From: a virus
Lineage: Duplodnaviria > Heunggongvirae > Uroviricota > Caudoviricetes
Virus record (IMG/VR): IMGVR_UViG_2897333091_000001
Reading direction: 5' to 3' (one strand)
DNA length: 24,951 bases
Under the pieces are notes generated by a model, which was given only the letters and a program-made list of their open reading frames with translations, was not told where the DNA came from and did not search any database. Positions 8,431-23,932 of the stretch are shown here, one piece after another. Each line of letters opens with the position of its first letter. Positions within the stretch are counted from its first letter, which is position 1. Position numbers and translations under genes: made by a program.

Positions 8431-8444
8431 GGGTTAGTATTTAA

Positions 8445-8466: not shown

Positions 8467-8563
8467 GTATCCTCTGACCCGATTGGTGTCTTGCTGAGCC
8501 TGATAACTACCAATTTTTGTTATTACTATTCTACTATCGCTCAATCATGATTGGCGGGAGTTG

Positions 8564-8690
8564 AAACCGCAGGCTCGTCGTATGCAAGAACGTGCTGCGG
8601 CTGGCTGGTGAACTTCCGATAGTGCGAGTATTGAATGATTTCCAGCCGTTACCGATTTTACGTATTTTTTGTATGAGAGGATTTACACCT
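8564..8690 (+). repeat. Direct repeat copy 2 (about 125 bp)
   Basis: Aligns along its length with 5266..5390, differing by scattered substitutions. Confidence 0.75.
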
Positions 8691-8930
8691 CCTCCCACCG
8701 ATCCTCCATGACTTTACGTCACTAAATTTTAACAGAGCCGGGAGCACTGCCGGAGCCTGCCTAATCATAATTCGCCCCCAAACTGGACGTACAGCGCTTT
8801 GTGTCCAGGTAGTGGGAAAATGAAGAAAGGACTGTCTGCCAGCAGTTCTGCGACCGCACCGGGCGCAGAGTATGCCAGCAGATTTCCGACTGGCCGCGCA
8901 GCTGCGATGGCACATCTGTCAGCAGGACGA

Positions 8931-9009
8931 AAAGTACTGAATGGTAGCGGCCAAACGGTGGTTTGAAAATGACCGGGCGACACGGTATTACGGGACTTTT
9001 ACAGTACTG
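8931..9009. repeat. 79-bp repeat unit A with AGTACTG terminal inverted repeats
   Basis: AAAGTACTGAATGGTAGCGGCCAAACGGT...GGCGACACGGTATTACGGGACTTTTACAGTACTG; near-identical copy at 9321..9397. Confidence 0.7.
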
Positions 9010-9320
9010 ATAATGAGGAAATGTATATGTATCAGCTTATAAAACTATATGGCGGGCAGATGGCCCCAAATCCATCCGAATACCGAATTTTGTTTCAGGG
9101 CAATTATCTCGCCGCTATATGGATTTATGCTTAGAGTAACAACCATGTAAATAATTGATAATTATAGATTGTTTAGCATGGTTCGCACTCTGAAATGCCG
9201 GGTGCGAGGTTTGGCGAAGATGGCCGATATTCGAGTGTTTTGCTCTTATATCGACGAAATAAGACAGGCGTGGCGGGATTTTTTCTGCGATTCCTGGGAA
9301 AAAAATGAATAAAAACAGTG

Positions 9321-9397
9321 AAAGTACTGAATGGTAGCGGCCAAACGGTACATAAAATGTCCGGGCGACACGGTATTACGGGACTTTTACAGTACTG
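9321..9397. repeat. 77-bp repeat unit B (copy of unit A)
   Basis: Same ends and core as 8931..9009, with a short divergent middle (GGTTTGAAAATGA vs ACATAAAATGT). Confidence 0.7.
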
Positions 9398-9733
9398 GTT
9401 ATGTGTAAAGATGCCAGCTGCGGGCCGTGTTCACCGGCGCACCGAGCGTAAAGTATGCCAGCAGATTTCAGGCTTGCCGCGCAGCTGCAGCATGCGGAAT
9501 GCCAGCACTGGACAGAATCACTGCACCGTCTATGAACTGGCGCCCCTTCATGCCCTGACCGGAGAGGCTTGGATGTACTCATGGAAGACAAAATGCCTAT
9601 TAATGAGGTAAGTATGCAAATTGAGTTAGGGCGAATGAGTGGGAAATAAAAATTACATATGTAGTGATTGCAAACCTGCTACATGAAGGTAACTGCAAAA
9701 AGCATATTACCTTCCTTGTAGCTATAGATAAGG

Positions 9734-11104
9734 TTATTTCTCTTTCTCAGGCAAAACGCGGTCTATAATTTCTTTATTAATTTTAGATGTCGTATTAATC
9801 AATTCGTTTATTTTATCAATTTCCATTTGATGTGACTTCTTGTCTATGGAGCTAAGCGGTGATCTTAATACTGATTTAAGAATGTTATCCATGAATAATG
9901 ATGATTTATCGGTATCGTTCTTATTGATTTCCTGCTTGAAAGATACAAGAGTTTCAGATAGCAATTTTTTATGTGCATAATCTTCACTGATGTTGTTTTG
10001 TTTAACATATTGTATGGCGCTAAATACAAAGAAGCCTATTAATACTGGAATCATTGAGAATCGAGCAAAGAATAATAATAATAAGTTGGGCTCTTGGCCT
10101 GTAGGAGGATAAGAACTAACTTCATTCATCTTGACAAGCATATAAACCACGAATGCTATACATACGATTGCAGCTCCTATTGATACAAAGGCCCAAAACC
10201 TTTTGTTTTTATTTGCGGTTTTGTATGCATCTCTAAAATGTCTTGATAGCCTATATGTTCCAGATAAATTCAATGCGGAATTAGCTTTAGAGTTCAATTC
10301 TTTCGCATTATTTATTTCACCAGATATAATGGTTTTTAATTCTTTAATTTCAGTTTTTTTATCAAGGAGATTTTTAATCTCACTGGCAGACTCAGCAGAT
10401 TTTTTAATGATTTCGTCTTGCATTGATTTGTTTGTATTAACGATATTGTTTAATGTTTCTTCAACAGTTCTTAGCTTTTCACTAGATGATTCTATACCAA
10501 TAAGTGCATCTCTGCTCTTTTTTAGTATGAATTCTATTTCAGAACCGGCGCTTTCAAATTTTTTCGTCTCGGCGTTCAAGTCCGTAACAAGTTTAATGAT
10601 TTTATCATGAGAGTTTGCATTTCTTACTGCTAACTCTCTGATTTGAGTTGCACTTATTTCAATTTCATTTTTCAGTTCTACCACTTTGGCTATTTCATTA
10701 GATGCTTGATTTTTGAACATAGCTAAGGTGTTAGGTTGATTATGCGTGCCTTGGATAAACTTAGATATTCTTGAATACCTAATTAAATCATCATTGATAG
10801 TGATAATGTTCCGATAAATATCATCTGAAAAAATATCAGAAATCATAGATGATATGTAGTTGTCCGTAAGTTTTAGTAGTGAAAAGATATTTTCTTTTTC
10901 TTCTTTTGTAAAGAATTCAGCATGTGCGAAAGGATGGAATTTATTGATTATGGAAATATGTTCGGACATATTTCCCAAAAGTTTGCTTCTTCTGTTGGCA
11001 ACGGTTATGTATTTAGGGTCACTTATGCTTTTTAGCATTCTTATGATTTTTTCAAAATTACCAAAAATAGATGCTGTGGTTGATGAAAATTCATTCAGAG
11101 TCAT
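9734..11104 (-). CDS. Orphan 456-aa protein: long helical/coiled-coil-like N-terminal region, two predicted TM helices, about 90-aa C-terminal tail; function unknown
   Basis: Uninterrupted ORF in very AT-rich DNA; K/E/I/N-rich N-terminal 290 aa; hydrophobic segments FWAFVSIGAAIVCIAFVVYMLV and LLLLFFARFSMIPVLIGFFVFSAIQYV; no neighbouring partner gene on the same strand. Confidence 0.7.
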   Translation of the reverse strand: MTLNEFSSTTASIFGNFEKIIRMLKSISDPKYITVANRRSKLLGNMSEHISIINKFHPFAHAEFFTKEEKENIFSLLKLTDNYISSMISDIFSDDIYRNIITINDDLIRYSRISKFIQGTHNQPNTLAMFKNQASNEIAKVVELKNEIEISATQIRELAVRNANSHDKIIKLVTDLNAETKKFESAGSEIEFILKKSRDALIGIESSSEKLRTVEETLNNIVNTNKSMQDEIIKKSAESASEIKNLLDKKTEIKELKTIISGEINNAKELNSKANSALNLSGTYRLSRHFRDAYKTANKNKRFWAFVSIGAAIVCIAFVVYMLVKMNEVSSYPPTGQEPNLLLLFFARFSMIPVLIGFFVFSAIQYVKQNNISEDYAHKKLLSETLVSFKQEINKNDTDKSSLFMDNILKSVLRSPLSSIDKKSHQMEIDKINELINTTSKINKEIIDRVLPEKEK

Positions 11105-12087
11105 ACTTTATCCATTTAGAAGTTGTGTATTGCAGTGTGTATTACAAAATGTTTGAAAGAAAAACATTTTGAGGAAAAACACTCTGATAATCAAGGAAGT
11201 ATTTTCAAGAGGTTGCATGGTGATCCATTATCCTTCTTCGCCAGCGGGGGATTAACCCCAGTCATGGCTTTCCGGTTAACCGGATATCATTGGGTTCAAT
11301 GCAGTACAAAAAATTGCCCGAAGCAACACTGAAATACCCTGTCACTCACCACACGTACCGCAGGCGACCCTGCCGGTGAGCCATTCTGATTGCGCAGTCT
11401 GTCCGGCGAGCCACTAACTCACTGGAAGAGAAAACAACATATGGCCGCGCAGCGGCGCGGGGATGCCCCTCGCAGGAAAAGTGAGTGACTACCCCGTCGA
11501 CGGCATTCAGCGCCTCACACAGCTGAAAACGGGACCGGTATACGGGCTGGCTAAAACAGGTCTGTTCATACCACGCTCCCCCCTGCCGAACGGGAACGCA
11601 CACTGTTCAACATCGCCCGTATCGATGTCATGTGTTCCGTCACGCATTCTGCCGATGCCAGCGCTGAGACTCGTCTTTCAGGAGGGGCCGCTGCAGGCCG
11701 AGATATGCGGTTGCCCGTCCCTTGCCCTTTTCAGCATTGACAACATCCAGCCTGTCGGGAGCTGCCGCATTGGGTTAGACCTGTGTAAGTCGATGCTAAC
11801 GTCTAACCATTTAACTTCCGCTTGTTGCTCATAACAGGCATTCACTTCAGTTACGGCAGAAAGGTATGCATGCTGGGTGGGGAAAGTGTGAAGGAAAAGA
11901 AGACTGCTGCGCCGTTTGTCGTCACGTTTATCTTCATTGGCTATGCAAGTCGTAATACAAGGTGGGACAAAACTGAGACACATAAGGCCTCGCAATGGCT
12001 TGCAAGGCTTTACATGTTTTGATGTGGTGGGACGTGTGAGCGCAGTGTTGATGGGGTAATGCTTTGAATTAGAAGCGGATTCTTATA

Positions 12088-12133
12088 ATTCGTAATGCGA
12101 AGGTCGTAGGTTCGACTCCTATTATCGGCACCA
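12088..12133 (+). repeat. Perfect 46-bp direct copy of the thrW 3' end (att core; right junction of element 1, left junction of element 2)
   Basis: ATTCGTAATGCGAAGGTCGTAGGTTCGACTCCTATTATCGGCACCA is identical to 1399..1444; flanks diverge immediately after one additional T. Confidence 0.9.
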
Positions 12134-12295
12134 TCTCAACTTCCCCAAACGTCCGTATTCATCCATAAGCACCCTGATTTATAACGATTTTACCGCTTTT
12201 TAGTCCGTCGTTGTCCGTGACCATCCAGTAGAATCCGATACAGAATGTGTATAGGATTGTGTATATGTTCCTGTTCGGTCTTGGAGCCTATACAC

Positions 12296-13471
12296 ATGCC
12301 TTTAAACGATATGCAGATTCGCCGCGCTAAGCCTGAAGATAAACCCTATACGCTTGGGGATGGGCAAGGCTTGTCATTGCTTATAGAACCTAATGGAAGC
12401 AAGAGCTGGCGGTTCCGCTATCGCTACGCCGGTAAACCCAAGATGATCTCGCTTGGCGTTTACCCAACGATCACCCTTGCCGATGCTCGTTCCCGTCGTG
12501 ATGAAGCTCGAAAACTTGTGGCAGAAGGAAAGAACCCTAGTGAGGTTCGAAAAGAGCAAAAGCTGGCTCTGCAAACAGAGTCAGAGAACGCCTTCGAAAA
12601 GATCGCCAGAGAGTGGCATCAACTTAAATCTGCTAAATGGTCAGCTGGATACGCATCAGACATCATGGAAGCGTTTAAGAACGACATTTTTCCTTATGTT
12701 GGAACAAGGCCTGTGGGAGAGATTAAACCGCTAGAGCTGCTGAACGTACTGCGTAAAATTGAGAAACGTGGTGCGTTGGAGAAAATGCGTAAAGTGCGGC
12801 AGCGTTGCTCCGAGGTGTTTCGCTACGCAATTGCAACAGGTAGGGCGGAGTACAATCCTGCTGCGGATCTCTCCAGCGCTCTCGAAGTGCATCAATCCAA
12901 TCATTTCCCGTTCTTAAAAGCTGATGAGATACCCGAATTTCTGCGTGCCTTAGAGAGTTACACCGGGAGTAAAATTGTCCAGATAGCAACGAAATTACTG
13001 ATGATTACGGGCGTGAGAACCATCGAATTACGCGCGGCATTATGGCAAGAATTTGATCTGGATAACGCTATTTGGGAAATTCCTGCTGAAAGGATGAAAA
13101 TGCGCAGGCCGCATCTTGTGCCATTGTCTACTCAGGCGTTAGATTTACTCAATGAACTCAAGACAATGACAGGCAACTATCGTTATGTTTTTCCTGGGCG
13201 AAATGATCCGAGTAAGCCAATGAGTGAGGCCGCTATCAATCAGCTTATAAAGCGACTTGGATACGGTGGCAGGCTTACAGGTCATGGATTTAGGCATATG
13301 ATGTCAACTATTTTACATGATGCTGGCTTTAATTCTCAATATATTGAATTACAGCTCGCTCACGTTGATAGTAATAGAATTCGCGGTACATATAATCATG
13401 CAACATTCATTGAAGAAAGAAGGAAAATGTTGAACTTTTTCTCTTCAACGTTATTTTTAAGGAAAATGTAA
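12296..13471 (+). CDS. int: Tyrosine recombinase, P4-type integrase
   Basis: 391 aa from the ATG at 12296 (MPLNDMQIRRAKPEDKPYTLGDGQGLSLLIEPNGSKSWRFRYRYAGK.. arm-binding N-terminus; C-terminal ..HGFRHMMSTILHDAGF..LAHVDSNRIRGTYNHA); sits next to the tRNA-derived att copy. Confidence 0.88.
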   Translation: MPLNDMQIRRAKPEDKPYTLGDGQGLSLLIEPNGSKSWRFRYRYAGKPKMISLGVYPTITLADARSRRDEARKLVAEGKNPSEVRKEQKLALQTESENAFEKIAREWHQLKSAKWSAGYASDIMEAFKNDIFPYVGTRPVGEIKPLELLNVLRKIEKRGALEKMRKVRQRCSEVFRYAIATGRAEYNPAADLSSALEVHQSNHFPFLKADEIPEFLRALESYTGSKIVQIATKLLMITGVRTIELRAALWQEFDLDNAIWEIPAERMKMRRPHLVPLSTQALDLLNELKTMTGNYRYVFPGRNDPSKPMSEAAINQLIKRLGYGGRLTGHGFRHMMSTILHDAGFNSQYIELQLAHVDSNRIRGTYNHATFIEERRKMLNFFSSTLFLRKM

Positions 13472-15288
13472 ATGAGAATTGAAACTGTTTATATTAAAGG
13501 ATTCAGGAATTACTGTGATGCTGTTATTAATTTTAATGAAACTAATTTGATTATAGGTGCAAATGATGTTGGAAAGACCAACCTATTATATGCCATTCGA
13601 TTATTACTTGATAAAAGTTTATCTGAATTAGATCTAGAACNNNNNNNNNNNNNNNNNNNNNNNNNNNNNNNNNNNNNNNNNNNNNNNNNNNNNNNNNNNN
13701 NNNNNNNNNNNNNNNNNNNNNNNNNNNNNNNNNNNNNNNNGAATTAGATCTAGAACCAAAAAGCAATGACTTTCATGTAAATTCGACAGGTGAACAGGTT
13801 GAAAATATAGAAATCACTATCAAGTTTACAGATGTTAGTGAAGATGCTGTAATATCTAAATTAGGAGGGTATGTTAGCGATGAAGGGGAAACATACATTA
13901 AGTATCTTGCTTCATCATTAACTATGGATTACAAGATATTACTTAGTCATGAACATAACAATTTTGATGAGGTTCCTAATAGATTTTACTTAAAGTGTTT
14001 AAGTCTAAGGTATATAAATTCGCAAAGAGATCTTGAAAAATACATTAAAATTGAAAAGAAGCATCTTTTAAGATTGGCGCAAGAAGTTCGTAGTGAAAAG
14101 GATACTGAAAATGATGGGGCGGTTTTTACTGAATTAAATAAGCTACTTACTGAAGTAAATGAAAAAGTTAAAGGAATAAGTTATGTTGCATCAGCAACAG
14201 AAGAGCTTAACGAGGAACTTAGAAAGTTATCCTATACTCATGATAGATTAACTGTTCAACTTGATACTGGTGCAATAGGGATTGACCAGTTTATAGAGAA
14301 ATTAGAATTAAGTGCGAATACAAATGGGAAGAAACTAATGCTTGGTGGCGATGGGTTTAATAACCAAATCCTTCTTGCGTTATGGAAAGCAAAAAGTGTT
14401 CGCGAGCATGATGTTGAAAGTGAAGTAGTGATCTATTGTATAGAGGAACCGGAAGCACATCTATTTCCTCACCAGCAAAGAAAATTGGCGGCCTATTTAA
14501 TCGATAAACTTCCAGGCCAAGCAATCGTTACAAGCCACTCACCCCAAATTGCAGTGAATTTTAAACCTGATTCAATCATAAAACTATACTATGATGATGG
14601 AGAGACTCTAGCCGCAAGTAATGGATGTTCTGATTGTATTAGCTCTGCATGGGATGGAATGGGCTACCGGATGAGTATTATTCCTGCTGAGGCATTTTTT
14701 GCTAACGTGGTTTTTTTGGTCGAGGGACCATCTGAGGTGATTTTTTACACTGAATTAGCAAAAGCATTAAGTATTGATCTTGATTATTATAACATCAGCA
14801 TTCTTTCTGTTGATGGTATCCAATTTGAAGTTTATAGAAAAATATTAACAGCTCTAAATATTAATTGGATCGTAAGAACAGACAATGATGCTTCAAAAGT
14901 ACCTCATAAGAATGAATGGCAATATGCTGGTGTAAATAGGGCGTTAGCACTGTGTGGAGAGAATAAAGAACCAAACTCAAGTATTCCTATAGATAGTAAA
15001 GCTTTGCATACTAAGTGGGGAACCATTTCACCAATAATAAATCCTAACGGCGTTTATATATCTTTTTTTGATCTTGAAGGAGATCTTGCTAATGACTTTT
15101 CGAAGCATGTTCTTGATTATGCAAGTAAGGATAATCTAGATGATGCCGCTGATTATTTGAGAGGAAAAAAAGCTATACGTATGCGTGAGTTAATTAAAGA
15201 GAAAAAAGCTTTTTTAACTGAACTGAAGAGCAAAGATATAGCCAGACCTCTAATACATGCACTGAAAATTGCTAGAGGTGAATTATGA
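13472..15288 (+). CDS. gajA: Gabija GajA-like OLD-family ATPase/Toprim endonuclease (interrupted by scaffold gap 13641..13740)
   Basis: N-terminus ..IKGFRNY..NLIIGANDVGKTNLLYAIRLLLDK (P-loop), later VIYCIEEPEAHLFPHQQRKL (Walker-B-like) and VVFLVEGPSEVIFY..IVRTDNDASK (Toprim), matching recalled GajA blocks; frame stays open from 13741 to 15288; starts directly after the int stop. Confidence 0.85.
13641..13740. other. Scaffold gap (100 N); flanks share a 16-bp overlap
   Basis: GAATTAGATCTAGAAC occurs at 13625..13640 and again at 13741..13756, in the gajA reading frame (ELDLE) on both sides. Confidence 0.9.
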
Positions 15289-16907
15289 AGCTAACTAAGG
15301 AACAGTTAGATGCAATTGATTACGAAGGTAATCTGGTTATAACTGCATGCCCAGGAAGTGGTAAAACAACAATACTCGTCCATAAGATTGCTGCCTGTTT
15401 ATCCCATTCCAAGGATTATCAGGGAGTTGTTGCGTTATCATATACGAATAAATCCAGCGAGGAGCTAAAAGCCAGATGTAGAAAATTGGGAGCAGAGTTA
15501 AATTCTAGCTTCTTTGGTACTATTGATAAGTTTTTCATTAACGAAATAATATTACCTTTTGTAAGGCAAGTATGGGGCAGAAACGAAAGCGCTCTCGAAG
15601 TAGTAAAGTATATAGATCTTTCTCAAGAATTAAAAGATAAGACAAATAAGTACTTTGACCGAGTGGATTTTTATTCTAATACTTCATTTGAGGGCATGGG
15701 TTCTCTGAGGGATATTTATTTAAAGGGGATGTTGATTTTAGACTTCCTTCCTCACTTGGCTTTTTATATAGTTAGAACATCATATTCTTGTCAGCGGTAT
15801 TTAATGGCAAAGTATATTGGTTTTTTTGTCGATGAGTATCAGGATACCGGTTATTTTACTCATCAGGTTTTCAAGTTCATACCAACGCTAGGGATGCCTC
15901 TTATTATCGTTGGTGATTTGGATCAATCAATTTATTTGTATTCTCACCGCAGTTCGGATTCACTAAAAGATTTCATGAATGATAGTGGTTTCTGTCATAA
16001 GGAAATTACAGTAAATCACAGATGTCACCCATCTATAGTAAATTACGCCAATAGAATTAAAGATTTTGAATGTCAACTAGCTCCGTGTGATGAGATTTTT
16101 GTTTATAGAAAATGTGTTGATGGCAATCAAATTGATATAGCTAAATGGATTGGTGAAATTCTTGATAATGTAAAAAATAAATTTTCAATATCTGATAATA
16201 AGGAGATTGCTATATTGGTAAGAAGCAATGCTTGCGCGGAGCTAGTTTCTGATAATTTAGTTGTTTCTAATAGGGCTTATTTGGATAATGATTTAACAAA
16301 GGCTGGTGGTAAGGTTTCTGGTCTTGTTAATGATTTATTATGTTACAGGTATAACTTAAATAAAACTGCTCAGTCTATTTTGGAGGGGGTTTTGGGAAGC
16401 AGTGTCAAAAGGAGCGAGGCTACTCGTATCCGTAAGGCTATTAAGCAGGTTAGAAGTGTTACAGATGCCTTTCTTATTGACGTAATAAATAAAATTGTAG
16501 TAACTCTTTTAGGGACTGAAATCGAGCAGCATCATAAGTCCGCTCTTTCAGAGATATTAGTTACTCCGAGGATGCAAAATAATTATTTGGATGTTAGAAG
16601 TGATGAAGTACAAATAATGACGTTACATAAGTCTAAAGGTCTTGAGTTTGACTTTGTTTTTCATTTGGATCTGTATGATTGGATTTTGCCTAAAAGAGTT
16701 TTCATAGAAGGAAGCTATGATGTTGTATTCGAAAATGAACAGCAATGCATAAATCTTCATTACGTAGGAATTACACGAGCAAGAAAAGGCATTATGCTAA
16801 TGCATTCTACGAAACGGTATAATGGTTCAGGTGATCTTAAGAACGGGGCTCCATCTCAATTTCTTTTGAAACCTGGGTTAGATGGCCTTTATAAAAAAAT
16901 AAATTAA
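15285..16907 (+). CDS. gajB: Gabija GajB-like UvrD/PcrA-type SF1 helicase
   Basis: 540 aa; LDAIDYEGNLVITACPGSGKTTILVHKI (motif I), FFVDEYQDTGY (motif II), LIIVGDLDQSIY, VNHRC, MTLHKSKGLEFDFVF (motif V/VI-like), matching recalled GajB blocks; 4-nt ATGA overlap with gajA. Confidence 0.88.
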   Translation: MKLTKEQLDAIDYEGNLVITACPGSGKTTILVHKIAACLSHSKDYQGVVALSYTNKSSEELKARCRKLGAELNSSFFGTIDKFFINEIILPFVRQVWGRNESALEVVKYIDLSQELKDKTNKYFDRVDFYSNTSFEGMGSLRDIYLKGMLILDFLPHLAFYIVRTSYSCQRYLMAKYIGFFVDEYQDTGYFTHQVFKFIPTLGMPLIIVGDLDQSIYLYSHRSSDSLKDFMNDSGFCHKEITVNHRCHPSIVNYANRIKDFECQLAPCDEIFVYRKCVDGNQIDIAKWIGEILDNVKNKFSISDNKEIAILVRSNACAELVSDNLVVSNRAYLDNDLTKAGGKVSGLVNDLLCYRYNLNKTAQSILEGVLGSSVKRSEATRIRKAIKQVRSVTDAFLIDVINKIVVTLLGTEIEQHHKSALSEILVTPRMQNNYLDVRSDEVQIMTLHKSKGLEFDFVFHLDLYDWILPKRVFIEGSYDVVFENEQQCINLHYVGITRARKGIMLMHSTKRYNGSGDLKNGAPSQFLLKPGLDGLYKKIN

Positions 16908-16924
16908 AAATTACTTGGCGCGCA

Positions 16925-16943
16925 ATGCTCTCCCCGCCACGCC
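16925..16943 (-). other. cos-like site resembling P2/186-family 19-nt cohesive-end sequence
   Basis: Reverse complement GGCGTGGCGGGGAGAGCAT is one mismatch from the 186-type and three from the P2/P4-type cohesive end as I recall them; lies between the cargo and psu, where P4 carries cos. Confidence 0.5.
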
Positions 16944-17044
16944 CGCCCGCTTTGTGGGGCGGTTTTAATGCAGTTGTACTGTCACGCTCAGGCTGCGCCG
17001 GGAATGGCGCGGTCTGCAGAAAATGAGGCAGGGAAACGCATGCA

Positions 17045-17077
17045 AAGCCATGCACCTTATCGATGCATGGCTTTTTT
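17045..17077 (+). terminator. Rho-independent terminator between gajB and psu
   Basis: AAGCCATGCA-ccttatcga-TGCATGGCTT stem-loop followed by TTTTTT; an A-run on the other side allows bidirectional function. Confidence 0.6.
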
Positions 17078-17107
17078 CAGTAAAAACAGGCGGATTTTCG
17101 GGGAATT

Positions 17108-17680
17108 TTACACAGACTGACGTGATGCCAGTTGCGCACTTTTACGCGAAAAAATCATGTTCTGCGCAGGGGTGAATTTTTCACGGCTGTCATCCACCGA
17201 AGCCGCGTCAGGCCTGAATCCGATGGTCGTTAAAATGTCGCTATCCTGTGCGGAATAATTAATTTTTTCCCCCTTCGCAAGCCAGGACAGAAGGGCTTCA
17301 CGCAGGGCATCTGTGGCACGCTGAATGGCACAGTTTCGGGCAATGACCGTCAGCTCACTGTAGCCCATCAGCTCCGGTGCCAGTGCCGCCGCCAGTGCTG
17401 TGCCGTGCTGCTGCATAAAATCATTCAGCCGGTCGCGGATGCTGATGTGCTGAACGGCTTCATGCGAACGAATATAACGACCGGCGGCCTGATTCACCTG
17501 CCATTTTCTGACTTCGATAATATTGCGTAATTCGTCCAGGCGACTGACGTTTCTGCCTTCTCCTGACAGAAGCCGCAGGTATTCCTGTTCGGCCGCTGCC
17601 AGCTCATTTTTGCGTTGCAGCCATGCTGCTTTGTTATTCTGACAGGTGTCAAAGGCCTGCTGTAAGGCTGTGCTTTCCAT
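17108..17680 (-). CDS. psu: P4 Psu-like polarity suppression / capsid decoration protein
   Basis: 190 aa MESTALQQAFDTCQNNKAAWLQRKNELAAAEQEYLRLL.., same length and near-identical to recalled P4 Psu; last gene of the sid-delta-psu operon. Confidence 0.88.
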   Translation of the reverse strand: MESTALQQAFDTCQNNKAAWLQRKNELAAAEQEYLRLLSGEGRNVSRLDELRNIIEVRKWQVNQAAGRYIRSHEAVQHISIRDRLNDFMQQHGTALAAALAPELMGYSELTVIARNCAIQRATDALREALLSWLAKGEKINYSAQDSDILTTIGFRPDAASVDDSREKFTPAQNMIFSRKSAQLASRQSV

Positions 17681-17753
17681 CGTTATCTCTTTCTCATCAT
17701 GCTGAAGAATAAAAATACGGTGTGCGGCGACGGCCGGTGTTAACCGACAGCCC

Positions 17754-18254
17754 TCATTCCAGACGCAGCGAATATGATTGTGTTTTTAACCGTACTGGCG
17801 GCAGTTCCTGTTTTTCATGCAGGCTTTCTGCCAGTTCGTCCGGTGTGACCGGGCGGACAATGAAACGGTTGATGGTCTGAAGCGTTTTAAACACCAGACC
17901 ACAGCCCGGATCCGTGCACACATAAAAACGCTCGGTGACTTCCTGAGACAGACGCCGCGATGTTCTTGACAGTGCAAGGCCTTTACATCTCCGACAACAA
18001 TATCCGGTAACAAGCATTCTTTTCGGGCGTTTCATACTGCCGGAGGCTGACGTCAGTGAATCGCGATATCTCTGTTTGCCTGAAATGTATTCCATTCCTG
18101 AATCTTTACAGTCAGAGAAAAAGCTTTCACTCGCTTCAAATGTCGCAGAGCAATAAATATTCCGGCACTGTGCAATCATTATCTTGGTGCCATCGTCCAT
18201 GAAATGTGCGCGACGGGTGTGAGCAACATGTCCACACGACGGGCAGTAAATCAT
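17754..18254 (-). CDS. delta: P4 Delta-like late transcription activator (two tandem Ogr-type zinc-finger units)
   Basis: 166 aa; MIYCPSCGHVAHTRRAHFMDDGTKIMIAQCRNIYCSATF.. and a second unit ..YCCRRCKGLALSRTSRRLSQEVTERFYVCTDPGCGLVF..; ATGA overlap with the sid stop. Confidence 0.88.
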   Translation of the reverse strand: MIYCPSCGHVAHTRRAHFMDDGTKIMIAQCRNIYCSATFEASESFFSDCKDSGMEYISGKQRYRDSLTSASGSMKRPKRMLVTGYCCRRCKGLALSRTSRRLSQEVTERFYVCTDPGCGLVFKTLQTINRFIVRPVTPDELAESLHEKQELPPVRLKTQSYSLRLE

Positions 18255-18985
18255 GACAGCAGTCCTCTGGCCTTAAGCTCTGCTCCCTGCTGGTCTATTT
18301 TGTCCTGCCACACCTTGCGCTGTGCCGGTGTGCCTGCCACCTCATAATCCATGTGCGGAAGTGTTGCCGCTGACAGTCCGGTCAGCCGGAGAACCGGCTC
18401 GCCGGTGAGGCTGATTTGCATCTGTTTTATTTTCTGTTCCAGCGATGATTTCACCTGCTGCATGACAGCTTTATCGGGTGCGACGTAGCCCTGATGCCCG
18501 GTGGTGTTGGCGAGCGGATTTTCCTGTACCTGGATGCTCAGATGCATTGCCCGGACAAGCGCCTCACAGGTTTCATTCAGGGCGTGTTCCAGCTCATGCT
18601 CTGCATACAGACTCAGCAGGTGATGATGTGCCTTCCGGTAGGCGGTGGCCGTGCTGTCACACGCCCCTTTCAGGCGTTCGCGTTCAAAATTCAGCACCAC
18701 GGCCAGATTGTCATATTCCTGTACCAGCTCCCGGCGTGCCACGCGCTCAATGTGGCGCTGTTTCAGCTCGTCGCTCAGGACACCACCGGCTGCACGAAAG
18801 GCCGTGCGCCAGTCGTCAGCGTCGTTTCCGTCGGCCTGCGCCAGCGCATTTTTTTCCTGCTCTGCCCGTTCAATGGCCGTAACGGTCTCATCCATCAGGC
18901 GGGCGTTCTCAAGATGGGCGGCTCTGGACTTTTCCAGTTGTGCCAGTGCGGGTTGCAGATATTCAGGGATGGTGTTGTCAGACAT
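18251..18985 (-). CDS. sid: P4 Sid-like capsid size determination protein
   Basis: 244 aa from the ATG at 18985 (MSDNTIPEYLQPALAQLEK..), matching the recalled length and N-terminus of P4 Sid; GAGGAG SD. The ORF track starts 18 nt upstream at a GTG (19003), which I consider less likely. Confidence 0.85.
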   Translation of the reverse strand: MSDNTIPEYLQPALAQLEKSRAAHLENARLMDETVTAIERAEQEKNALAQADGNDADDWRTAFRAAGGVLSDELKQRHIERVARRELVQEYDNLAVVLNFERERLKGACDSTATAYRKAHHHLLSLYAEHELEHALNETCEALVRAMHLSIQVQENPLANTTGHQGYVAPDKAVMQQVKSSLEQKIKQMQISLTGEPVLRLTGLSAATLPHMDYEVAGTPAQRKVWQDKIDQQGAELKARGLLS

Positions 18986-19057
18986 TTTCCGGCTCCTCGT
19001 CACTTCAGGTTAAGAAAATTGTGACGTACACCGGACAACAACACGACGCATTGCAGA

Positions 19058-19075
19058 TGTGCCAGCCCTGACACA
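19058..19075 (-). promoter_or_regulatory. Ogr/Delta-responsive late-promoter dyad (TGT-N12-ACA) upstream of sid
   Basis: TGTGCCAGCCCTGACACA lies about 70 bp upstream of the sid start codon, the position and pattern expected for P2/P4 late promoters such as Psid. Confidence 0.6.
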
Positions 19076-19154
19076 GGAGACTCATCCTCAGACCGGCAAG
19101 CCAGGAAAAGGTCGCAGGAAAAACCGGCTTACTGTTTGTTTTTTTATATTTTAC

Positions 19155-19258
19155 TGTTCACCTCTGTTCACCTTAATAAAAAAGATAAGTAATACAGTAA
19201 GTTAAATGGTGAACAATCGCAGTAATGACTGTTCACCGTCTGTTCACCACTGTTCACC
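19155..19258. repeat. Iteron cluster, six copies of TGTTCACC (five direct, one inverted); P4 ori-like
   Basis: TGTTCACC at 19155, 19165, 19230, 19241 and 19251, with GGTGAACA at 19208; this octamer is the alpha-protein binding iteron of P4 ori/crr as I recall. Confidence 0.6.
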
Positions 19259-19537
19259 CGCTCATGGACTTTTTGTGCTGTTTATTACTGTTTGTTTTTA
19301 TTAATTCGCCGGGAATGAATAAGAAAAAACGATTTGTATTTCACTATAAAAATTACGAATTGCTTTAAGTGGCTTTAAATGACTTTAAGTGGAGATGAAC
19401 AAAAAATACACAAGCATTGTAAGGCTGCCGGAACAAATCCCCCCTGTTGCGTCTGCTGAAAATATTCACAAAATAAAGCGCTACCCGAAGCCGGACGGAC
19501 TTATCCGGTGCTGTATGGACATTAACGAGGTAGCCCG

Positions 19538-19804
19538 ATGCAAGCTGTTTTTTCTTCCCCGTCTCCCGCCCCTGTGACGCCACTGATGCCGCTGCCGGAC
19601 ATCACACAGGAGCGTTTTTTACGTCTTCCGGAAGTGATGCACCTGTGCGGCCTGTCACGCTCGACCATCTATGAACTCATCCGTAAGGGGGAATTTCCGC
19701 CGCAGGTGAGTCTTGGCGGTAAAAATGTGGCCTGGCTGCACTCTGAAGTCACCGCATGGATGGCCGGGCGCATTGCCGGACGCAAACGGGGGTACGACGC
19801 ATGA
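19538..19804 (+). CDS. AlpA/Vis-family small DNA-binding regulator (excision/transcription control)
   Basis: 88 aa; core ..[50 protein letters not shown].. is typical of AlpA/Vis HTH proteins; GAGG SD 7 nt upstream; an alternative internal start at 19586 is possible. Confidence 0.75.
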
Positions 19805-20202
19805 TGATGCCTGTTCTGCAAAAACTTCCTTTTTCTGGCTTGCCTTTTTCCGGCATTTGCGGATATAGTTTTTCCGCTGCCGCAAAATCGGCAGCCGGGC
19901 GTGGAAACCCGAGTATGTTATCGGCGACATATGACGCGCCATGCGTCTTTTTTTGTGTCGCAATCAACGCCACAGAGCGCCAGATTATGGTGTGGTGTGT
20001 GGTCAGTCGAGCAAATGGCACTCCGTGCATTCTGCCCGCGTCCGCTCATTATACCGCAGAGTCAATGGTAGCTCAGGCGGGGCAGCCTCCGGGCTGGCCG
20101 GTTTCCGATAACGCCGGTATTTCCACCCCCGTCTGGGCTATCGCCATCGAGCGTGGAAACTCCGGCGATAGCGTCATTTACGCTGTTATCGGAGGTTGCC
20201 TT

Positions 20203-20400
20203 ATGGCTACGACCCTTACCCCCTCACACCCTGAATTTGTCTTTGTGTTTGCGGCTGTCCGTCGCACAGACCGTCATCCCCGTATCTGTATGCTTCGCAC
20301 CGTCGCCGGTGATGAACGCAGCGCCCGCCGTTCCCTTGTCCGTGACTATGTGCTCTCCCTTGCTGCCCGTCTGCCGGTGGTGGAGGTGTCCCGTGCGTAA
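20203..20400 (+). CDS. Hypothetical small protein (65 aa)
   Basis: ATG with GGAGG SD; [65 protein letters not shown]; the longer upstream extension of this frame (from 19756/19801) looks non-protein-like. Confidence 0.35.
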
Positions 20401-20680
20401 TAAAAAAGCCCCTCAGACCGTCTCAGCACGTCATGACGCCCGTGAACACCTCAGCATTGAGGCTTACCATAAGCTCAACCGCGCCAGCGCCGTATCCCAG
20501 TTTGTTGGGGGTGATTTGATTCACCGTGAACTCTCCGGCCTGCATCAGCTCTACATTCCGCATATTTTCAGCTACCTGAATGAAGATATTGATTTTGTGC
20601 TGAATGAGCTGAAAGCCAAAGGCCTGTGCCGCGATTTTCTCGCCCAGCAGAAAGACCGGGGAGACAGGACGCATGTTTGA
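20393..20680 (+). CDS. Hypothetical P4-like early-region protein (95 aa, GTG start)
   Basis: GTG preceded by GGAGGTG SD; ..[65 protein letters not shown]..; overlaps neighbouring genes by a few nt at both ends; the N-terminal extension from 20153 was rejected. Confidence 0.45.
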
Positions 20681-21128
20681 TTTTCCCCAGCCCGGTGAGA
20701 TTTACCGTTCTGCCGGTTTTCCCGATGTGGCCGTGGTCGGCATTCTGGAAGACGGTATTCCGTGGGAAATGCCGTACCGCTGCCCGGACATTGTCTGGAA
20801 CCCGTACCGCCGTAAATTCAGTATCCTTGTGCGTATCCTCGCTGACGGGCGCACCACAGACATCCCGCTGGGGCGTTTTCTGCGGGAATTTACCTGTGAC
20901 CGTCCTGACCTGTTTAAACGCAGCCCCGTAAACCGGCATGCGGTACTGAAAGAAATGGCCGGAGACCCGGAATTACAGAAATGGCGGGAGAAATATCTGG
21001 ATATTTACCCGCAGGACACTGTTCCGGTCAGCCGGGCGGCACCGGTGGCGCGGGAATGGCGGGAAATTCCCCGCACGGAGCCTGACCCGGAAATCACCCC
21101 GGATAACAGTTACCGCAATTATCTGTAA
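20673..21128 (+). CDS. Hypothetical P4-like early-region protein (151 aa)
   Basis: ATG with GGAGACAGG SD; protein-like composition; size and position match the 151-codon ORF upstream of alpha in P4 as I recall it. Confidence 0.55.
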   Translation: MFDFPQPGEIYRSAGFPDVAVVGILEDGIPWEMPYRCPDIVWNPYRRKFSILVRILADGRTTDIPLGRFLREFTCDRPDLFKRSPVNRHAVLKEMAGDPELQKWREKYLDIYPQDTVPVSRAAPVAREWREIPRTEPDPEITPDNSYRNYL

Positions 21129-21263
21129 TTAAAAAACGACACCCGAAAAATTAAATGTGCGTATTCGCGCAGGGATACGCACGTCTTCAGGAGACGCAGA
21201 TATGCCTTATCAGTTAATGCAACCGGCACGGAATGCAGTCATCTGTCACAGGGAGGAAAACAA

Positions 21264-21584
21264 ATGAAAACACCCTTACCGCCCGTCTTACGCGCTGCCC
21301 TTTACCGTCGCGCTGTCGCCTGTGCCTGGCTGACCGTGTGCGAACGTCAGCACCGCTACCCGCATCTCACCCTTGAGTCACTGGAAGCGGCCATCGCCGC
21401 TGAGCTGGAAGGCTTTTATCTGCGCCAGCACGGTGAGGAAAAAGGGCGTCAGATAGCCTGTGCCCTGCTGGAAGATTTAATGGAATCCGGCCCCCTGAAG
21501 GCCGCGCCGTCGCTGTCCTTTCTCGGGCTGGTTGTGATGGATGAACTCTGTGCCCGTCACATAAAAGCGCCGGTACTGCACTGA
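21264..21584 (+). CDS. Hypothetical P4-like early-region protein (106 aa)
   Basis: Strong GGGAGG SD 4 nt before the ATG; ends 14 bp before the primase start. Confidence 0.6.
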
Positions 21585-21598
21585 AGGAGAACAACACC

Positions 21599-23932
21599 AT
21601 GAAAATGAACGTAACCGCCACCGTCAGCCATGCGCTCGGCCACTGGCCGCGTATTCTCCCGGCGCTGGGGATTCAGGTGCTGAAAAACCGTCATCAGCCC
21701 TGTCCGGTCTGTGGCGGGAGTGACCGCTTCCGTTTTGATGACAGGGAGGGGCGCGGCACCTGGTACTGCAATCAGTGTGGTGCCGGTGACGGCCTGAAAC
21801 TGGTTGAAAAGGTGTTTGGTGTCTCCCCGTCCGACGCGGCCGCAAAGGTGGCTGCCGTGACCGGCAGCCTGCCCCCGGCTGACCCGGCAGTGACGGCTGC
21901 CGCCGGTGCTGAAACAGACGCTGCCCGGAAGAACGCCGCCGCACTGGCACAAACCCTGATGGCGAAAACCCGTCCCGGAACCGGTAACGCCTACCTGACC
22001 CGCAAGGGCTTTCCCGGCCGGGAATGCCGGATGCTGACCGGCACACACAGAGCCGGTGGCGTGAGCTGGCGTGCCGGTGACCTTGTGGTGCCACTGTATG
22101 ACGACAGCGGCGAACTGGTTAACCTTCAGTTAATCAGTGCTGACGGCCGTAAGCGCACCCTGAAAGGCGGACAGGTCAGGGGCACCTGTCACACCCTTGA
22201 AGGACAGAATCAGGCCGGAAAACGTCTGTGGATAGCGGAGGGATACGCGACCGCACTTACCGTGCATCACCTGACCGGTGAAACGGTGATGGTGGCGCTT
22301 TCTTCCGTGAACCTCCTTTCTCTGGCCAGCCTTGCCCGGCAGAAGCATCCGGCCTGTCAGATTGTCCTTGCCGCAGACCGTGACCTCAGCGGTGACGGCC
22401 AGAAAAAAGCCGCCGCAGCCGCAGATGCGTGTGAAGGTGTTGTTGCCCTGCCGCCGGTCTTCGGTGACTGGAATGATGCCTTCACGCAGTACGGCGGGGA
22501 GGCCACCCGTAAGGCCATTTACGATGCCATCCGGCCACCGGCTGAAAGCCCGTTCGACACCATGAGTGAAGCGGAGTTTTCCGCCATGAGTACCAGCGAA
22601 AAGGCCATGCGTATCTATGGGCATTACGGCGAGGCGCTCGCGGTCGATGCCAACGGCCAGCTTCTGTCCCGTTATGAAAATGGTGTCTGGAAGGTGCTGC
22701 CACCACAGGACTTTGCCCGGGATGTGGCCGGGCTGTTTCAGCGTCTGCGCGCGCCGTTCTCCTCCGGGAAGGTGGCCTCCGTGGTGGACACCCTGAAGCT
22801 GATTATTCCGCAGCAGGAAGCCCCCTCCCGCCGCCTGATTGGCTTTCGTAACGGCGTGCTCGACACGCAGAACGGCACGTTCCACCCGCACAGTCCGTCA
22901 CACTGGATGCGCACCCTGTGCGATGTGGATTTCACCCCGCCGGTGGACGGTGAAACGCTGGAGACCCACGCCCCCGCGTTCTGGTGCTGGCTTGACCGTG
23001 CCGCCGGTGGCCGTGCGGAAAAACGCGACGTGATTCTGGCCGCACTGTTTATGGTGCTGGCAAACCGCTACGACTGGCAGCTCTTTCTGGAGGTGACCGG
23101 TCCCGGCGGCAGCGGCAAAAGTATCATGGCCGAAATCGCCACCCTGCTGGCCGGGGAGGATAACGCCACGTCGGCCACCATCGAGACGCTGGAATCCCCG
23201 CGTGAACGTGCCGCGTTAACTGGCTTCTCACTGATACGCCTGCCGGACCAGGAAAAATGGAGCGGCGACGGTGCCGGACTCAAGGCCATCACCGGCGGTG
23301 ATGCGGTGTCCGTTGACCCGAAATACCGGGATGCGTACTCCACGCATATCCCGGCGGTGATTCTGGCCGTGAACAATAACCCGATGCGCTTCACCGACCG
23401 CAGCGGCGGCGTGTCACGCCGGCGGGTGATTATTCACTTCCCGGAACAGATAGCCCCGCAGGAGCGCGACCCGCAGCTTAAGGACAAAATCACCCGCGAG
23501 CTGGCGGTCATCGTGCGTCACCTGATGCAGAAATTCAGCGACCCGATGCTCGCCCGGTCACTGCTTCAGTCCCAGCAGAACTCAGACGAGGCGCTGAACA
23601 TCAAACGGGATGCCGACCCGACGTTTGATTTTATCGGCTATCTGGAAACCCTGCCGCAGACCAGCGGCATGTATATGGGGAACGCCAGTATCATCCCGCG
23701 CAATTACCGTAAATACCTCTATCACGCCTATCTGGCCTACATGGAGGCAAACGGCTACCGGAATGTACTCAGTCTGAAAATGTTCGGGCTGGGGCTGCCG
23801 GTGATGCTGAAGGAATACGGACTGAATTACGAGAAGCGCCATACCAAACAGGGGATACAGACCAACCTGACGCTGAAAGAGGAAAGCTACGGCGACTGGC
23901 TGCCAAAATGTGACGCCCCTGCAACAACCTGA
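21599..23932 (+). CDS. alpha: P4 alpha-type primase/helicase (zinc-binding primase N-terminus, Toprim, C-terminal P-loop NTPase)
   Basis: 777 aa; N-terminal ..HQPCPVCGGSDRFRFDDREGRGTWYCNQCG.. zinc motif; Walker A EVTGPGGSGKS; AAGGAG SD; same length as recalled P4 alpha. Confidence 0.9.
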   Translation: MKMNVTATVSHALGHWPRILPALGIQVLKNRHQPCPVCGGSDRFRFDDREGRGTWYCNQCGAGDGLKLVEKVFGVSPSDAAAKVAAVTGSLPPADPAVTAAAGAETDAARKNAAALAQTLMAKTRPGTGNAYLTRKGFPGRECRMLTGTHRAGGVSWRAGDLVVPLYDDSGELVNLQLISADGRKRTLKGGQVRGTCHTLEGQNQAGKRLWIAEGYATALTVHHLTGETVMVALSSVNLLSLASLARQKHPACQIVLAADRDLSGDGQKKAAAAADACEGVVALPPVFGDWNDAFTQYGGEATRKAIYDAIRPPAESPFDTMSEAEFSAMSTSEKAMRIYGHYGEALAVDANGQLLSRYENGVWKVLPPQDFARDVAGLFQRLRAPFSSGKVASVVDTLKLIIPQQEAPSRRLIGFRNGVLDTQNGTFHPHSPSHWMRTLCDVDFTPPVDGETLETHAPAFWCWLDRAAGGRAEKRDVILAALFMVLANRYDWQLFLEVTGPGGSGKSIMAEIATLLAGEDNATSATIETLESPRERAALTGFSLIRLPDQEKWSGDGAGLKAITGGDAVSVDPKYRDAYSTHIPAVILAVNNNPMRFTDRSGGVSRRRVIIHFPEQIAPQERDPQLKDKITRELAVIVRHLMQKFSDPMLARSLLQSQQNSDEALNIKRDADPTFDFIGYLETLPQTSGMYMGNASIIPRNYRKYLYHAYLAYMEANGYRNVLSLKMFGLGLPVMLKEYGLNYEKRHTKQGIQTNLTLKEESYGDWLPKCDAPATT

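What the first reader, a model, noticed from the sequence alone, without database searches (positions are those of the whole stretch)
13472..16907. Gabija (gajA/gajB) carried as cargo in the int-cos hotspot of a P4-like satellite
Both genes show the hallmark motifs of the OLD-type ATPase/Toprim nuclease and the UvrD-type helicase, overlap by 4 nt, and are markedly more AT-rich than the P4 backbone. gajA begins directly after the integrase stop, and the pair occupies the position where P4 itself carries gop/beta/cII, a location known to exchange anti-phage cargo in P4-like satellites.
Basis: partly seen in the sequence, partly recalled or inferred. Interest (0 to 1): 0.65.

Follow-up and report, generated by a model that had tools for sequence, protein, structure and literature searches.

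The report
Gabija defence operon in P4-like satellite
This is an intact two-gene Gabija anti-phage system sitting in the known variable cargo slot of a P4-like phage satellite in E. coli, and this exact gene pair at this exact position was already catalogued in 2022, so it is real but ordinary.

Summary
The observation and the interpretation both hold, but the feature is already known. The reading frame at 13472..15288 is split only by a 100-N scaffold gap (13641..13740). That gap is flanked by a 16-nt duplicated overlap. Collapsing it gives a 1701-nt gajA (566 aa) identical at every base to a complete E. coli genome. gajB (15285..16907, 540 aa) overlaps gajA by ATGA. PADLOC assigns both proteins full-length to GajA (3.9e-261) and GajB (3.7e-224). 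The best non-Gabija models score far lower (AriA 4.4e-31, RTasHel 7.9e-38). Key catalytic residues are conserved: K35, E379 and D432/D434 in GajA, and GSGKTT and DEYQD in GajB. The pair fills the interval between the integrase stop (13471) and a P4 cos site (16925..16943). The element is otherwise 97.8% identical to P4 from cos to crr and is integrated at tRNA-Thr. P4 itself carries gop/beta/cII in this slot. Sister satellites with the same type of integrase carry DRT3 or SIR2+HerA there. Rousset et al. 2022 (Table S1B, system #6, 153 occurrences) list these same two proteins in the P4 hotspot as "Gabija". Anti-phage activity of this subtype was not tested here, and I found no published test.

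The parts
12088..12133 (+). attL of the P4-like satellite: a 46-nt copy of the 3' end of tRNA-Thr(CGT). It also serves as attR of the upstream prophage.
   Evidence: Exact 46-nt repeat of 1399..1444. In E. coli E1 the same int follows the intact tRNA-Thr directly.
12245..13471 (+). Tyrosine integrase of the thrW-targeting type, not P4's leuX-type int. RefSeq starts it at 12296.
   Evidence: Pfam Arm-DNA-bind_3, Phage_int_M and Phage_integrase. About 90% aa identity to the ints of sister satellites, diverging after the catalytic YNHA motif.
13472..15288 (+). gajA, an OLD-family ABC ATPase + Toprim nuclease. It is 566 aa once the 100-N gap (13641..13740) and the duplicated 16 nt (13741..13756) are collapsed.
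   Evidence: PADLOC GajA PDLC00066 3.9e-261, residues 1-564 on profile 1-565/567. Pfam AAA_15 + OLD-like_TOPRIM. 100% nt identity to WP_001356949 in a complete genome. PDB GajA 1.1e-35 with K35, E379 and D432/D434 aligned.
13641..13740 (.). Scaffold gap of 100 N inside gajA; an assembly artefact, not a disruption.
   Evidence: 16-nt identical flanks. The collapsed sequence equals the complete-genome sequence with 0/1701 mismatches.
15285..16907 (+). gajB, a UvrD-like SF1 helicase/NTPase of 540 aa. Its start overlaps the gajA stop (ATGA).
   Evidence: PADLOC GajB PDLC00123 3.7e-224, full length. [quoted passage not shown] PDB GajB 3.4e-33 with GSGKTT and DEYQD aligned.
16925..16943 (-). P4/P2-type cos cohesive-end sequence (GGCGTGGCGGGGAGAGCAT); the right boundary of the cargo slot.
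   Evidence: 16/19 match to GGCGAGGCGGGGAAAGCAC, 0 expected by chance. The alignment to the circularised P4 cos junction continues through it and breaks about 10 nt from the gajB stop.
17108..17680 (-). psu (polarity suppression / capsid decoration protein).
   Evidence: Pfam Psu 3.4e-88. 97.8% nt identity to P4.
17754..18254 (-). delta (Ogr/Delta late-gene activator).
   Evidence: Pfam Ogr_Delta 6.7e-22. P4 homology.
18251..19003 (-). sid (capsid size determination).
   Evidence: Lies within the 97.8% P4-identical block, corresponding to P4 sid 9583..10317.
19863..20148 (+). P4 immunity region: c4-a1b1 targets, isrK and the C4 antisense (CI) RNA.
   Evidence: Rfam RF03163 51.5 bits, RF01394 74.7 bits, RF01695 77.9 bits, all above gathering score.
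21599..23932 (+). alpha primase-helicase (777 aa).
   Evidence: Pfam Zn_Ribbon_Prim, Toprim_3, D5_N, Pox_D5. P4 alpha homology.
23979..24278 (+). crr: two 120-nt direct repeats required in cis for replication.
   Evidence: Direct repeat D2, 120 nt with 180-nt spacing. Corresponds to P4 crr 4291..4590.
24393..24415 (+). Degenerate attR (GTTCATTCCTATTATCGCACCAT), a partial copy of the tRNA-Thr 3' end.
   Evidence: Local alignment to the att sequence, 23/25 positions with two 1-nt gaps. This is weaker evidence than for attL.

Best explanation
Window 13472..16907 is an intact type Gabija operon (gajA-gajB). It is carried as accessory cargo in the int-cos variable slot of a 12.3-kb P4-like phage satellite (12088..24415) integrated at tRNA-Thr (thrW) of E. 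coli.

Shown here:
- Both proteins are full-length members of the PADLOC GajA and GajB families and retain the key catalytic residues.
- The genes are translationally close-packed, with TAAATG after int and an ATGA overlap between them.
- They are AT-rich foreign DNA on a backbone that is otherwise P4.
- The same slot holds other defence systems in sister satellites.

Inferred from published work on B. cereus and other Gabija systems, not tested here:
- GajA tetramers and GajB assemble into a 4:4 complex.
- GajA Toprim nicks or cleaves DNA and is held in check by cellular NTP levels.
- GajB senses the resulting DNA ends and hydrolyses (d)ATP/(d)GTP, so phage replication is blocked. A 2025 preprint proposes that the preferred targets are linear DNA ends not protected by RecBCD.

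Inferred role: in the lysogen the satellite expresses Gabija against competing phages, which protects both host and satellite. Expression would come either by read-through from int or from a promoter in the AT-rich 3' end of int; this is inferred and weakly supported.
For: - Family assignment: PADLOC GajA 3.9e-261 and GajB 3.7e-224, full length. The best non-Gabija models are AriA 4.4e-31 and RTasHel 7.9e-38.
- Domains: Pfam AAA_15 + OLD-like_TOPRIM, and UvrD-helicase + UvrD_C.
- Solved structures: B. cereus GajA 1.1e-35 and GajB 3.4e-33. K35, E379 and D432/D434 align, as do GSGKTT and DEYQD. Residue roles are taken from PMC10781630.
- Intactness: the collapsed gajA is identical to complete-genome sequence, 0/1701 mismatches. 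18 of 5426 complete E. coli genomes carry the pair at >=99.8% identity. All three examined have it in the same int-gajAB-psu arrangement at thrW.
- Satellite backbone: 97.8% identical to P4 4291..11624, a cos site, and the C4 and isrK RNAs.
- Slot variability: DRT3 or SIR2+HerA occupy the slot in sister elements.
- Prior publication: Rousset et al. 2022 Table S1A/S1B list WP_001356949 + WP_001356948 as system #6, 153 occurrences, noted 'Gabija'.
Against: - No experimental test of this particular Gabija subtype was found. It has only distant sequence similarity to the B. cereus system, and it is below 60% identity to anything on an E. coli plasmid.
- At B. cereus GajA G409, described as an invariant glycine, the HMMER alignment places an Asp, with Gly at the adjacent position 410. 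This is probably a one-column alignment shift but was not resolved.
- No convincing sigma-70 promoter was found upstream of gajA. The count of promoter-like hits in the region is no higher than in shuffled sequence.
- An insertion hidden in the 100-N gap cannot be strictly excluded for this strain.
Confidence: 0.93

Rival explanations
1. The pair belongs to a different OLD-ATPase-based defence system (PARIS AriA/AriB, Septu, a retron-associated OLD nuclease, or a DRT-associated helicase) and not to Gabija.
For: GajA also hits the AriA model (4.4e-31) and GajB hits RTasHel (7.9e-38) in PADLOC. A retron Eco8 OLD nuclease appears weakly in the PDB search (4.8e-4).
Against: The Gabija models score more than 200 orders of magnitude better and cover both proteins end to end. 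The partner is a UvrD-type helicase, not a DUF4435/AriB protein, and there is no RT or retron ncRNA in the slot. OLD class 2 plus an adjacent UvrD-like helicase is the definition of Gabija (PMC10781630).
Confidence: 0.02
2. gajA is genuinely disrupted in this strain, for example by an IS element or other insertion hidden in the 100-N gap. The operon would then be a pseudogene remnant.
For: A contig break falls inside the gene. A direct duplication flanking a gap could in principle be a target-site duplication.
Against: Both contig ends consist only of gajA sequence, with no foreign bases. The 16-nt overlap joins them in frame into a sequence identical to 18 complete genomes. The break lies in the most AT-rich stretch of the window (23.8% GC in 13501..14000), where short-read coverage drop-outs are common. 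A 16-nt target-site duplication would be unusual for E. coli IS elements (my own knowledge).
Confidence: 0.04
3. The AT-rich pair is a housekeeping or repair-type OLD/UvrD module, or a selfish addiction module of the satellite, with no anti-phage role.
For: This subtype has not been tested experimentally as far as I could find. P4's own cargo, gop/beta, behaves like a toxin-antitoxin pair.
Against: Gabija systems from Bacillus, E. coli (ECOR49) and Pseudomonas all protect against phages. The slot is occupied by validated defence systems in sister satellites.
Confidence: 0.03

Closest known systems
P4-hotspot system #6 'Gabija' of Rousset et al. 2022 (Cell Host Microbe; PMC9122126, Table S1A/S1B): WP_001356949 + WP_001356948
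   Same: The protein sequences match as far as printed in the table, and the nucleotide sequence is identical to a genome annotated with those accessions. The position is the same, between psu/cos and int of E. coli P4-like satellites. The paper counts 153 occurrences.
   Different: Nothing in the gene pair itself. In this window the satellite lies in tandem behind another thrW-integrated prophage, instead of directly next to the tRNA as in the three complete genomes examined.
Bacillus cereus VD045 Gabija (GajA/GajB; PDB 8SM3, 8J4T, 8U7I, 8JQ9 and others)
   Same: Same two-gene architecture, domain order and similar lengths (566 vs 578 aa; 540 vs ~494 aa). Conserved residues are GajA Walker A K35 and Toprim E379 and D432/D434, and GajB GSGKTT and DEYQD.
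   Different: Only distant sequence similarity (phmmer E about 1e-35 and 1e-33). The two fall in different PADLOC subfamilies. GajB here is about 45 aa longer. Position 409 is Asp-Gly here where B. cereus has Gly-Gly. The genomic carrier here is a phage satellite; the carrier of the B. cereus system was not examined here.
Satellite phage P4 (NC_001609) with gop/beta/cII cargo
   Same: 97.8% nt identity from cos through psu, delta, sid, the immunity region and alpha to crr. The cargo is in the same slot, adjacent to cos.
   Different: The segment from the cos-left end through the cargo, int and attP is replaced. Gabija stands in place of gop/beta/cII, and a thrW-type integrase and att stand in place of the leuX-type ones.
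Plasmid-borne E. coli Gabija (tmn-linked; ECOR49 system tested by Wu et al., bioRxiv 10.1101/2022.08.21.504612)
   Same: Same system type in the same species. That system is experimentally active, with about 10^5-fold protection against lambda.
   Different: A different subtype and carrier. tblastn of this GajA against 72,556 plasmids finds nothing above 60% identity in E. coli; the best hit is an Erwinia plasmid at 72%.

Membership tests
Gabija (GajA/GajB) | GajA is a class 2 OLD-family protein with an N-terminal ABC-type ATPase and a C-terminal Toprim nuclease domain | tested here: met
   Pfam AAA_15 (1-322) + OLD-like_TOPRIM (370-434). PADLOC GajA PDLC00066 3.9e-261 over the full length.
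Gabija (GajA/GajB) | GajB is a UvrD/PcrA/Rep-like SF1A helicase encoded immediately downstream in the same operon | tested here: met
   Pfam UvrD-helicase, AAA_19 and UvrD_C. PADLOC GajB PDLC00123 3.7e-224. Same strand, with a 4-nt ATGA overlap with gajA.
Gabija (GajA/GajB) | GajA catalytic residues: Walker A lysine (K35), Toprim glutamate (E379), DxD (D432/D434) and an invariant glycine (G409) | tested here: inconclusive
   K35, E379, D432 and D434 align exactly with the B. cereus residues. At 409 the alignment gives Asp, with Gly at 410, a possible one-column shift (residue list from PMC10781630).
Gabija (GajA/GajB) | GajB Walker A (GxxxxGKTT) and DEXQD-box Walker B | tested here: met
   ACPGSGKTT at residues 21-29 and VDEYQDT aligned to B. 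cereus IDEYQDS (motif definition). The first Gly of the extended P-loop is Cys/Ala here, but the GSGKTT core is intact.
Gabija (GajA/GajB) | Assembly into a 4:4 GajA-GajB complex | not tested
   Would need co-purification or complex structure prediction. No multimer prediction was run.
Gabija (GajA/GajB) | Confers resistance to phage infection | not testable with these tools
   Needs plaque assays. No published test of this subtype was found.
P4-like phage satellite | Core gene set int, psu, delta, sid, alpA/orf88, epsilon and alpha (SatelliteFinder-style definition, cited in PMC10121019) | tested here: met
   int, psu, delta and alpha are found by Pfam. sid, orf88, epsilon, orf151 and orf106 lie within the 97.8% P4-identical block and match the ORF layout of P4. 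The RefSeq annotation of the identical element agrees.
P4-like phage satellite | P2/P4-type cos site adjacent to the cargo slot, and the CI (C4) immunity RNA | tested here: met
   cos matches 16/19 and the flanks are conserved with P4. Rfam C4 77.9 bits, isrK 74.7 bits, c4-a1b1 51.5 bits.
P4-like phage satellite | Integrated at a tRNA gene, with att repeats at both ends | tested here: met
   attL is a 46-nt exact copy of the tRNA-Thr 3' end. attR is a degenerate 23-nt copy at 24393..24415. The same element sits at thrW in three complete genomes.
PARIS (AriA/AriB) | AAA_15/21 ATPase paired with a DUF4435 Toprim protein (AriB) | tested here: not met
   AriA scores only 4.4e-31 against 3.9e-261 for GajA. 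The partner is a UvrD helicase, not a DUF4435 protein.

The most novel reading that the evidence does not exclude
The unit that is exchanged between satellites may be a cassette that includes the last ~20 codons of int, not just the genes between int and cos. The evidence is that nucleotide homology breaks at 13401..13432, that the int tail after the catalytic YNHA differs between the Gabija, DRT3 and SIR2-HerA carriers, and that GC content drops inside int. Because gajA starts on the base after the int stop with no detectable promoter of its own, Gabija expression would be coupled to integrase transcription. Defence level would then be tied to the satellite's lysogeny and excision state. A further open point concerns the proposal that Gabija attacks linear DNA ends not protected by RecBCD. 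If that holds for this subtype, it is unexplained how a cos-ended satellite avoids its own Gabija on entering an already-protected cell.
Probability: 0.2. Interest if true: 0.3.

Novelty: already known. Interest (0 to 1): 0.1.

Why it matters
The finding adds nothing new to the biology of defence systems. Gabija in the P4 psu-int hotspot is in the published catalogue with these same protein accessions. Its practical value is for annotation. It shows that the apparent break in gajA is an assembly artefact, so the strain should be scored as Gabija-positive. It also shows that the thrW locus of this strain holds two mobile elements in tandem, each with its own cargo region. This subtype, which is distant from the B. 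cereus model system and from plasmid-borne E. coli Gabija, appears to be experimentally untested. It is common in the published catalogue (153 P4 loci among 20,125 E. coli genomes in 2022), which makes it a reasonable but unsurprising candidate for a routine phage-challenge test.

Tried and rejected
- My first reconstruction of gajA used gap coordinates that were off by one, read from the sequence ruler. It produced a frameshifted product. I corrected this with a regex-located N run.
- I searched the 'phages' collection for the gajAB DNA and found no match. The INPHARED set does not hold this satellite variant, only P4 itself.
- I looked for a sigma-70 promoter for gajAB. The 14 promoter-like hits in 12000..17800 are no more than shuffled sequence gives (mean 16). 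The only upstream + strand candidate (13274..13302, 9/12) is weak, so no promoter claim is made.
- I searched for the protein accessions in paper full text and found 0 papers. They occur only in the supplementary tables of Rousset et al..
- I considered whether the pair could be PARIS, Septu, retron-OLD or a DRT helicase, and rejected this on PADLOC score and partner-gene identity.
- I considered an IS insertion in the gap, and judged it unlikely because the contig ends carry no foreign bases.
- I tested whether the whole upstream island (3374..12087) exists in any complete E. coli genome. No place covers 80% or more of it, so it is a mosaic.
- I did not run the capped large protein-database searches, structure prediction or fold search, because the identification was already unambiguous.
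Full report
**Observation**

The ORF list for the region shows these frames on the + strand:
- an integrase-sized ORF at 12245..13471;
- a 91-aa ORF at 13472..13747;
- a 454-aa ORF at 13924..15288;
- a 540-aa ORF at 15285..16907.

Reading the sequence shows why gajA appears split. A run of 100 N lies at 13641..13740 (exact coordinates). The 16 nt before the run (GAATTAGATCTAGAAC) are repeated immediately after it. If the two contig ends are treated as overlapping, the result is a single in-frame ORF of 1701 nt, or 566 aa.

This reconstructed sequence has 0 mismatches over 1701 nt to the annotated "ATP-dependent nuclease" WP_001356949 of the complete genome of E. coli E1. gajB has 0 mismatches over 1623 nt to WP_001356948. 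The gap is therefore an assembly artefact in the most AT-rich stretch of the window (23.8% GC in 13501..14000).

- The gajA ATG follows the int TAA directly, giving TAAATG.
- gajA and gajB overlap by ATGA.
- gajA is 33.9% GC and gajB 34.6%, against 55.2% for the P4 backbone.

**Identity of the two genes**

Against PADLOC-DB, the reconstructed GajA matches model GajA PDLC00066 end to end (residues 1-564 on profile 1-565/567, E = 3.9e-261). GajB matches GajB PDLC00123 end to end (E = 3.7e-224). The best non-Gabija models are AriA (4.4e-31) and RTasHel (7.9e-38).

Pfam gives AAA_15 plus OLD-like_TOPRIM for GajA, and UvrD-helicase, AAA_19 and UvrD_C for GajB.

Against PDB sequences, the top hits are the B. 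cereus VD045 GajA and GajB chains (1.1e-35 and 3.4e-33). In those alignments the following residues are conserved:
- the GajA Walker A lysine (K35);
- the Toprim glutamate (E379);
- the DxD motif (D432/D434);
- the GajB GSGKTT P-loop;
- the GajB DEYQD box.

The functional roles of these residues are taken from Antine et al. (PMC10781630). One unresolved detail remains. The glycine that paper calls invariant (G409) aligns with Asp here, with Gly at position 410. This is probably a one-column shift.

**Context**

The pair sits in a complete P4-like satellite. From 16944 to 24279 the window is 97.8% identical to P4 NC_001609 coordinates 4291..11624, which run from crr through alpha, orf106, orf151, epsilon, cI, orf88, sid, delta and psu to the right cohesive end. 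Other supporting results:
- Pfam confirms Psu, Ogr_Delta and the alpha primase domains.
- Rfam finds the C4 immunity RNA, isrK and the a1/b1 targets.
- The two 120-nt crr repeats are present.
- A cos cohesive-end sequence lies at 16925..16943. It matches 16/19, with none expected by chance.
- Alignment to the circularised P4 cos junction continues through cos and breaks about 10 nt from the gajB stop.

On the left, the integrase is not P4's. It is preceded at 12088..12133 by an exact 46-nt copy of the 3' end of tRNA-Thr(CGT). A degenerate copy lies at 24393..24415.

Relative to P4, then, the block from the cos-left end through the cargo, int and attP has been replaced. Gabija stands where P4 has gop/beta/cII, next to a thrW-specific integrase.

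In three complete genomes examined (E1, S14, LSN03-016011/A) the same int-gajA-gajB-psu element sits directly at thrW. Overall, 18 of 5426 complete E. coli genomes carry the pair at 99.8% identity or more.

**The slot is variable**

Other E. coli satellites whose integrase is about 90% identical carry different cargo between int and the delta/psu genes. One carries Drt3a/Drt3b (strain TCM_B_2). Another carries SIR2 plus an ATP-binding HerA-like protein (strain 65COLEC, at thrW).

Nucleotide homology between these integrases and the window stops at 13401..13432, which is 40-70 nt before the int stop. At protein level the sequences diverge mainly after the catalytic RGTYNHA motif. The last 250 nt of int are already 36% GC.

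**Comparison with the literature**

Rousset et al. 2022 (PMC9122126) described the psu-int interval of P4-like satellites, adjacent to cos, as a hotspot of anti-phage systems. They found 5,251 such loci in 20,125 E. coli genomes, with more than 300 gene arrangements.

Their Table S1A lists "AAA_15/... + UvrD-helicase/... WP_001356949 + WP_001356948" repeatedly. Table S1B lists it as system #6 with 153 occurrences. The representative sequences there begin MKLTKEQLDAIDYEGNLVITACPG... and MRIETVYIKGFRNYCDAVINFNETNLIIG..., the same as the window's proteins. The accompanying note reads "Gabija (Doron et al., 2018)". The finding is therefore already known at the level of the exact protein pair and position.

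In the held text of that paper's supplements, "Gabija" occurs only in Table S1 and in the main-text copy. This suggests it was not among the 18 systems they tested.

A different, plasmid-borne E. coli Gabija (ECOR49) has been shown to be active. The window's GajA is below 60% identical to anything on E. coli plasmids; the best plasmid hit is Erwinia at 72%. I found no direct experimental test of this subtype.

**Mechanism**

What is shown here is sequence-level membership in Gabija and intact key catalytic motifs. How it works is inferred from published Gabija studies:
- GajA is a nucleotide-sensing DNA nicking endonuclease (PMC8136825 abstract).
- GajA and GajB form a 4:4 complex of about 500 kDa that is required for defence and degrades phage DNA (PMC10781630).
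- GajB senses DNA termini made by GajA and hydrolyses (d)A/(d)GTP (bioRxiv 10.1101/2023.05.02.539174 abstract).
- A 2025 preprint proposes that Gabija targets linear DNA ends not protected by RecBCD (PMC12407980).

Expression is unresolved. No promoter signal above background was found. The TAAATG junction is compatible with read-through from int.

**Surroundings (outside the finding)**

The region 1445..12087 holds the two ends of another thrW-integrated element, in tandem with the satellite:
- a second integrase and an excisionase-like HTH next to the intact tRNA-Thr;
- a second 100-N gap (3274..3373) whose flanks do not overlap;
- an invertible tail-fibre segment with a PinE-type invertase;
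- low-GC cargo genes, then the 46-nt att copy.

In E. coli CX21 the same integrase end and pinE end are about 31 kb apart, in a full e14-like prophage at thrW. The first gap therefore probably hides about 31 kb of prophage. This prophage is not P2-like, so it is not an obvious helper for the satellite.

**Verdict**

Interest is low.

Noticed in passing
window 1369..12133: A second mobile element lies in tandem at thrW, upstream of the satellite. It runs from the intact tRNA-Thr (1369..1444) through a tyrosine integrase (1459..2622, -), an HTH_17 excisionase-like ORF (2499..2933, -), tail-fibre assembly and tail-fibre fragments (3520..4685, -) and a PinE-type invertase (4676..5266, +). It ends at an exact 46-nt copy of the tRNA 3' end (12088..12133). 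No complete E. coli genome holds 3374..12087 as one piece.
   Followed up: partly
window 3274..3373: A second 100-N scaffold gap. Unlike the gajA gap, its flanks do not overlap. In E. coli CX21 the sequences either side of it are about 31 kb apart, within a full e14-like prophage at thrW. This gap therefore probably hides most of a prophage, and the window under-represents the locus.
   Followed up: partly
window 5623..8123: A low-GC (32-35%) cargo block lies after the invertase. It holds an 84-aa ORF and a 313-aa ORF with no Pfam or PADLOC hit (RefSeq calls the homologue of the larger one 'LPO_1073/Vpar_1526 family'). These are followed by an XRE-type HTH (7234..7593) and an ImmA/IrrE M78 peptidase (7602..8123). 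The last two resemble the CapH/CapP regulator pair of defence systems (PADLOC 3.6e-10 and 5.8e-11). This could be an uncharacterised prophage-end defence cassette.
   Followed up: partly
window 9734..11104 (-): A 456-aa orphan ORF in a 32% GC stretch. It has no Pfam family and only weak PADLOC similarity (DruC 6.8e-05, ZorA 1.7e-03, possibly due to coiled-coil composition). A 98.7% identical copy sits at the end of a prophage next to ssrA in other E. coli strains.
   Followed up: partly
window 5288..5424, 8587..8723, 8855..9021, 9321..9488: A 137-nt direct repeat (82% identity) brackets the low-GC cargo, and a shuffled set of 29-56-nt repeats lies just downstream. RefSeq annotates the homologous spots as fragments of a 'capsid protein' pseudogene next to different cargo genes in different strains. 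They may be the recombination anchors for cargo exchange at this prophage end.
   Followed up: no
window 13221..13471; L002 and L003 integrase 3' ends: The C-terminal tail of the thrW-type integrase (about 22 aa after the catalytic RGTYNHA) and its nucleotide composition change with the cargo carried (Gabija, DRT3, SIR2+HerA). This suggests that cargo exchange recombines inside int, not in an intergenic spacer.
   Followed up: partly
L002 and L003 vs window 16944..24279: Integrases about 90% identical sit on P4-like backbones that are only about 67-70% identical to this one and have the delta/psu order reversed. The integrase/att module and the replication/late-gene module of P4-like satellites therefore reassort independently.
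   Followed up: no
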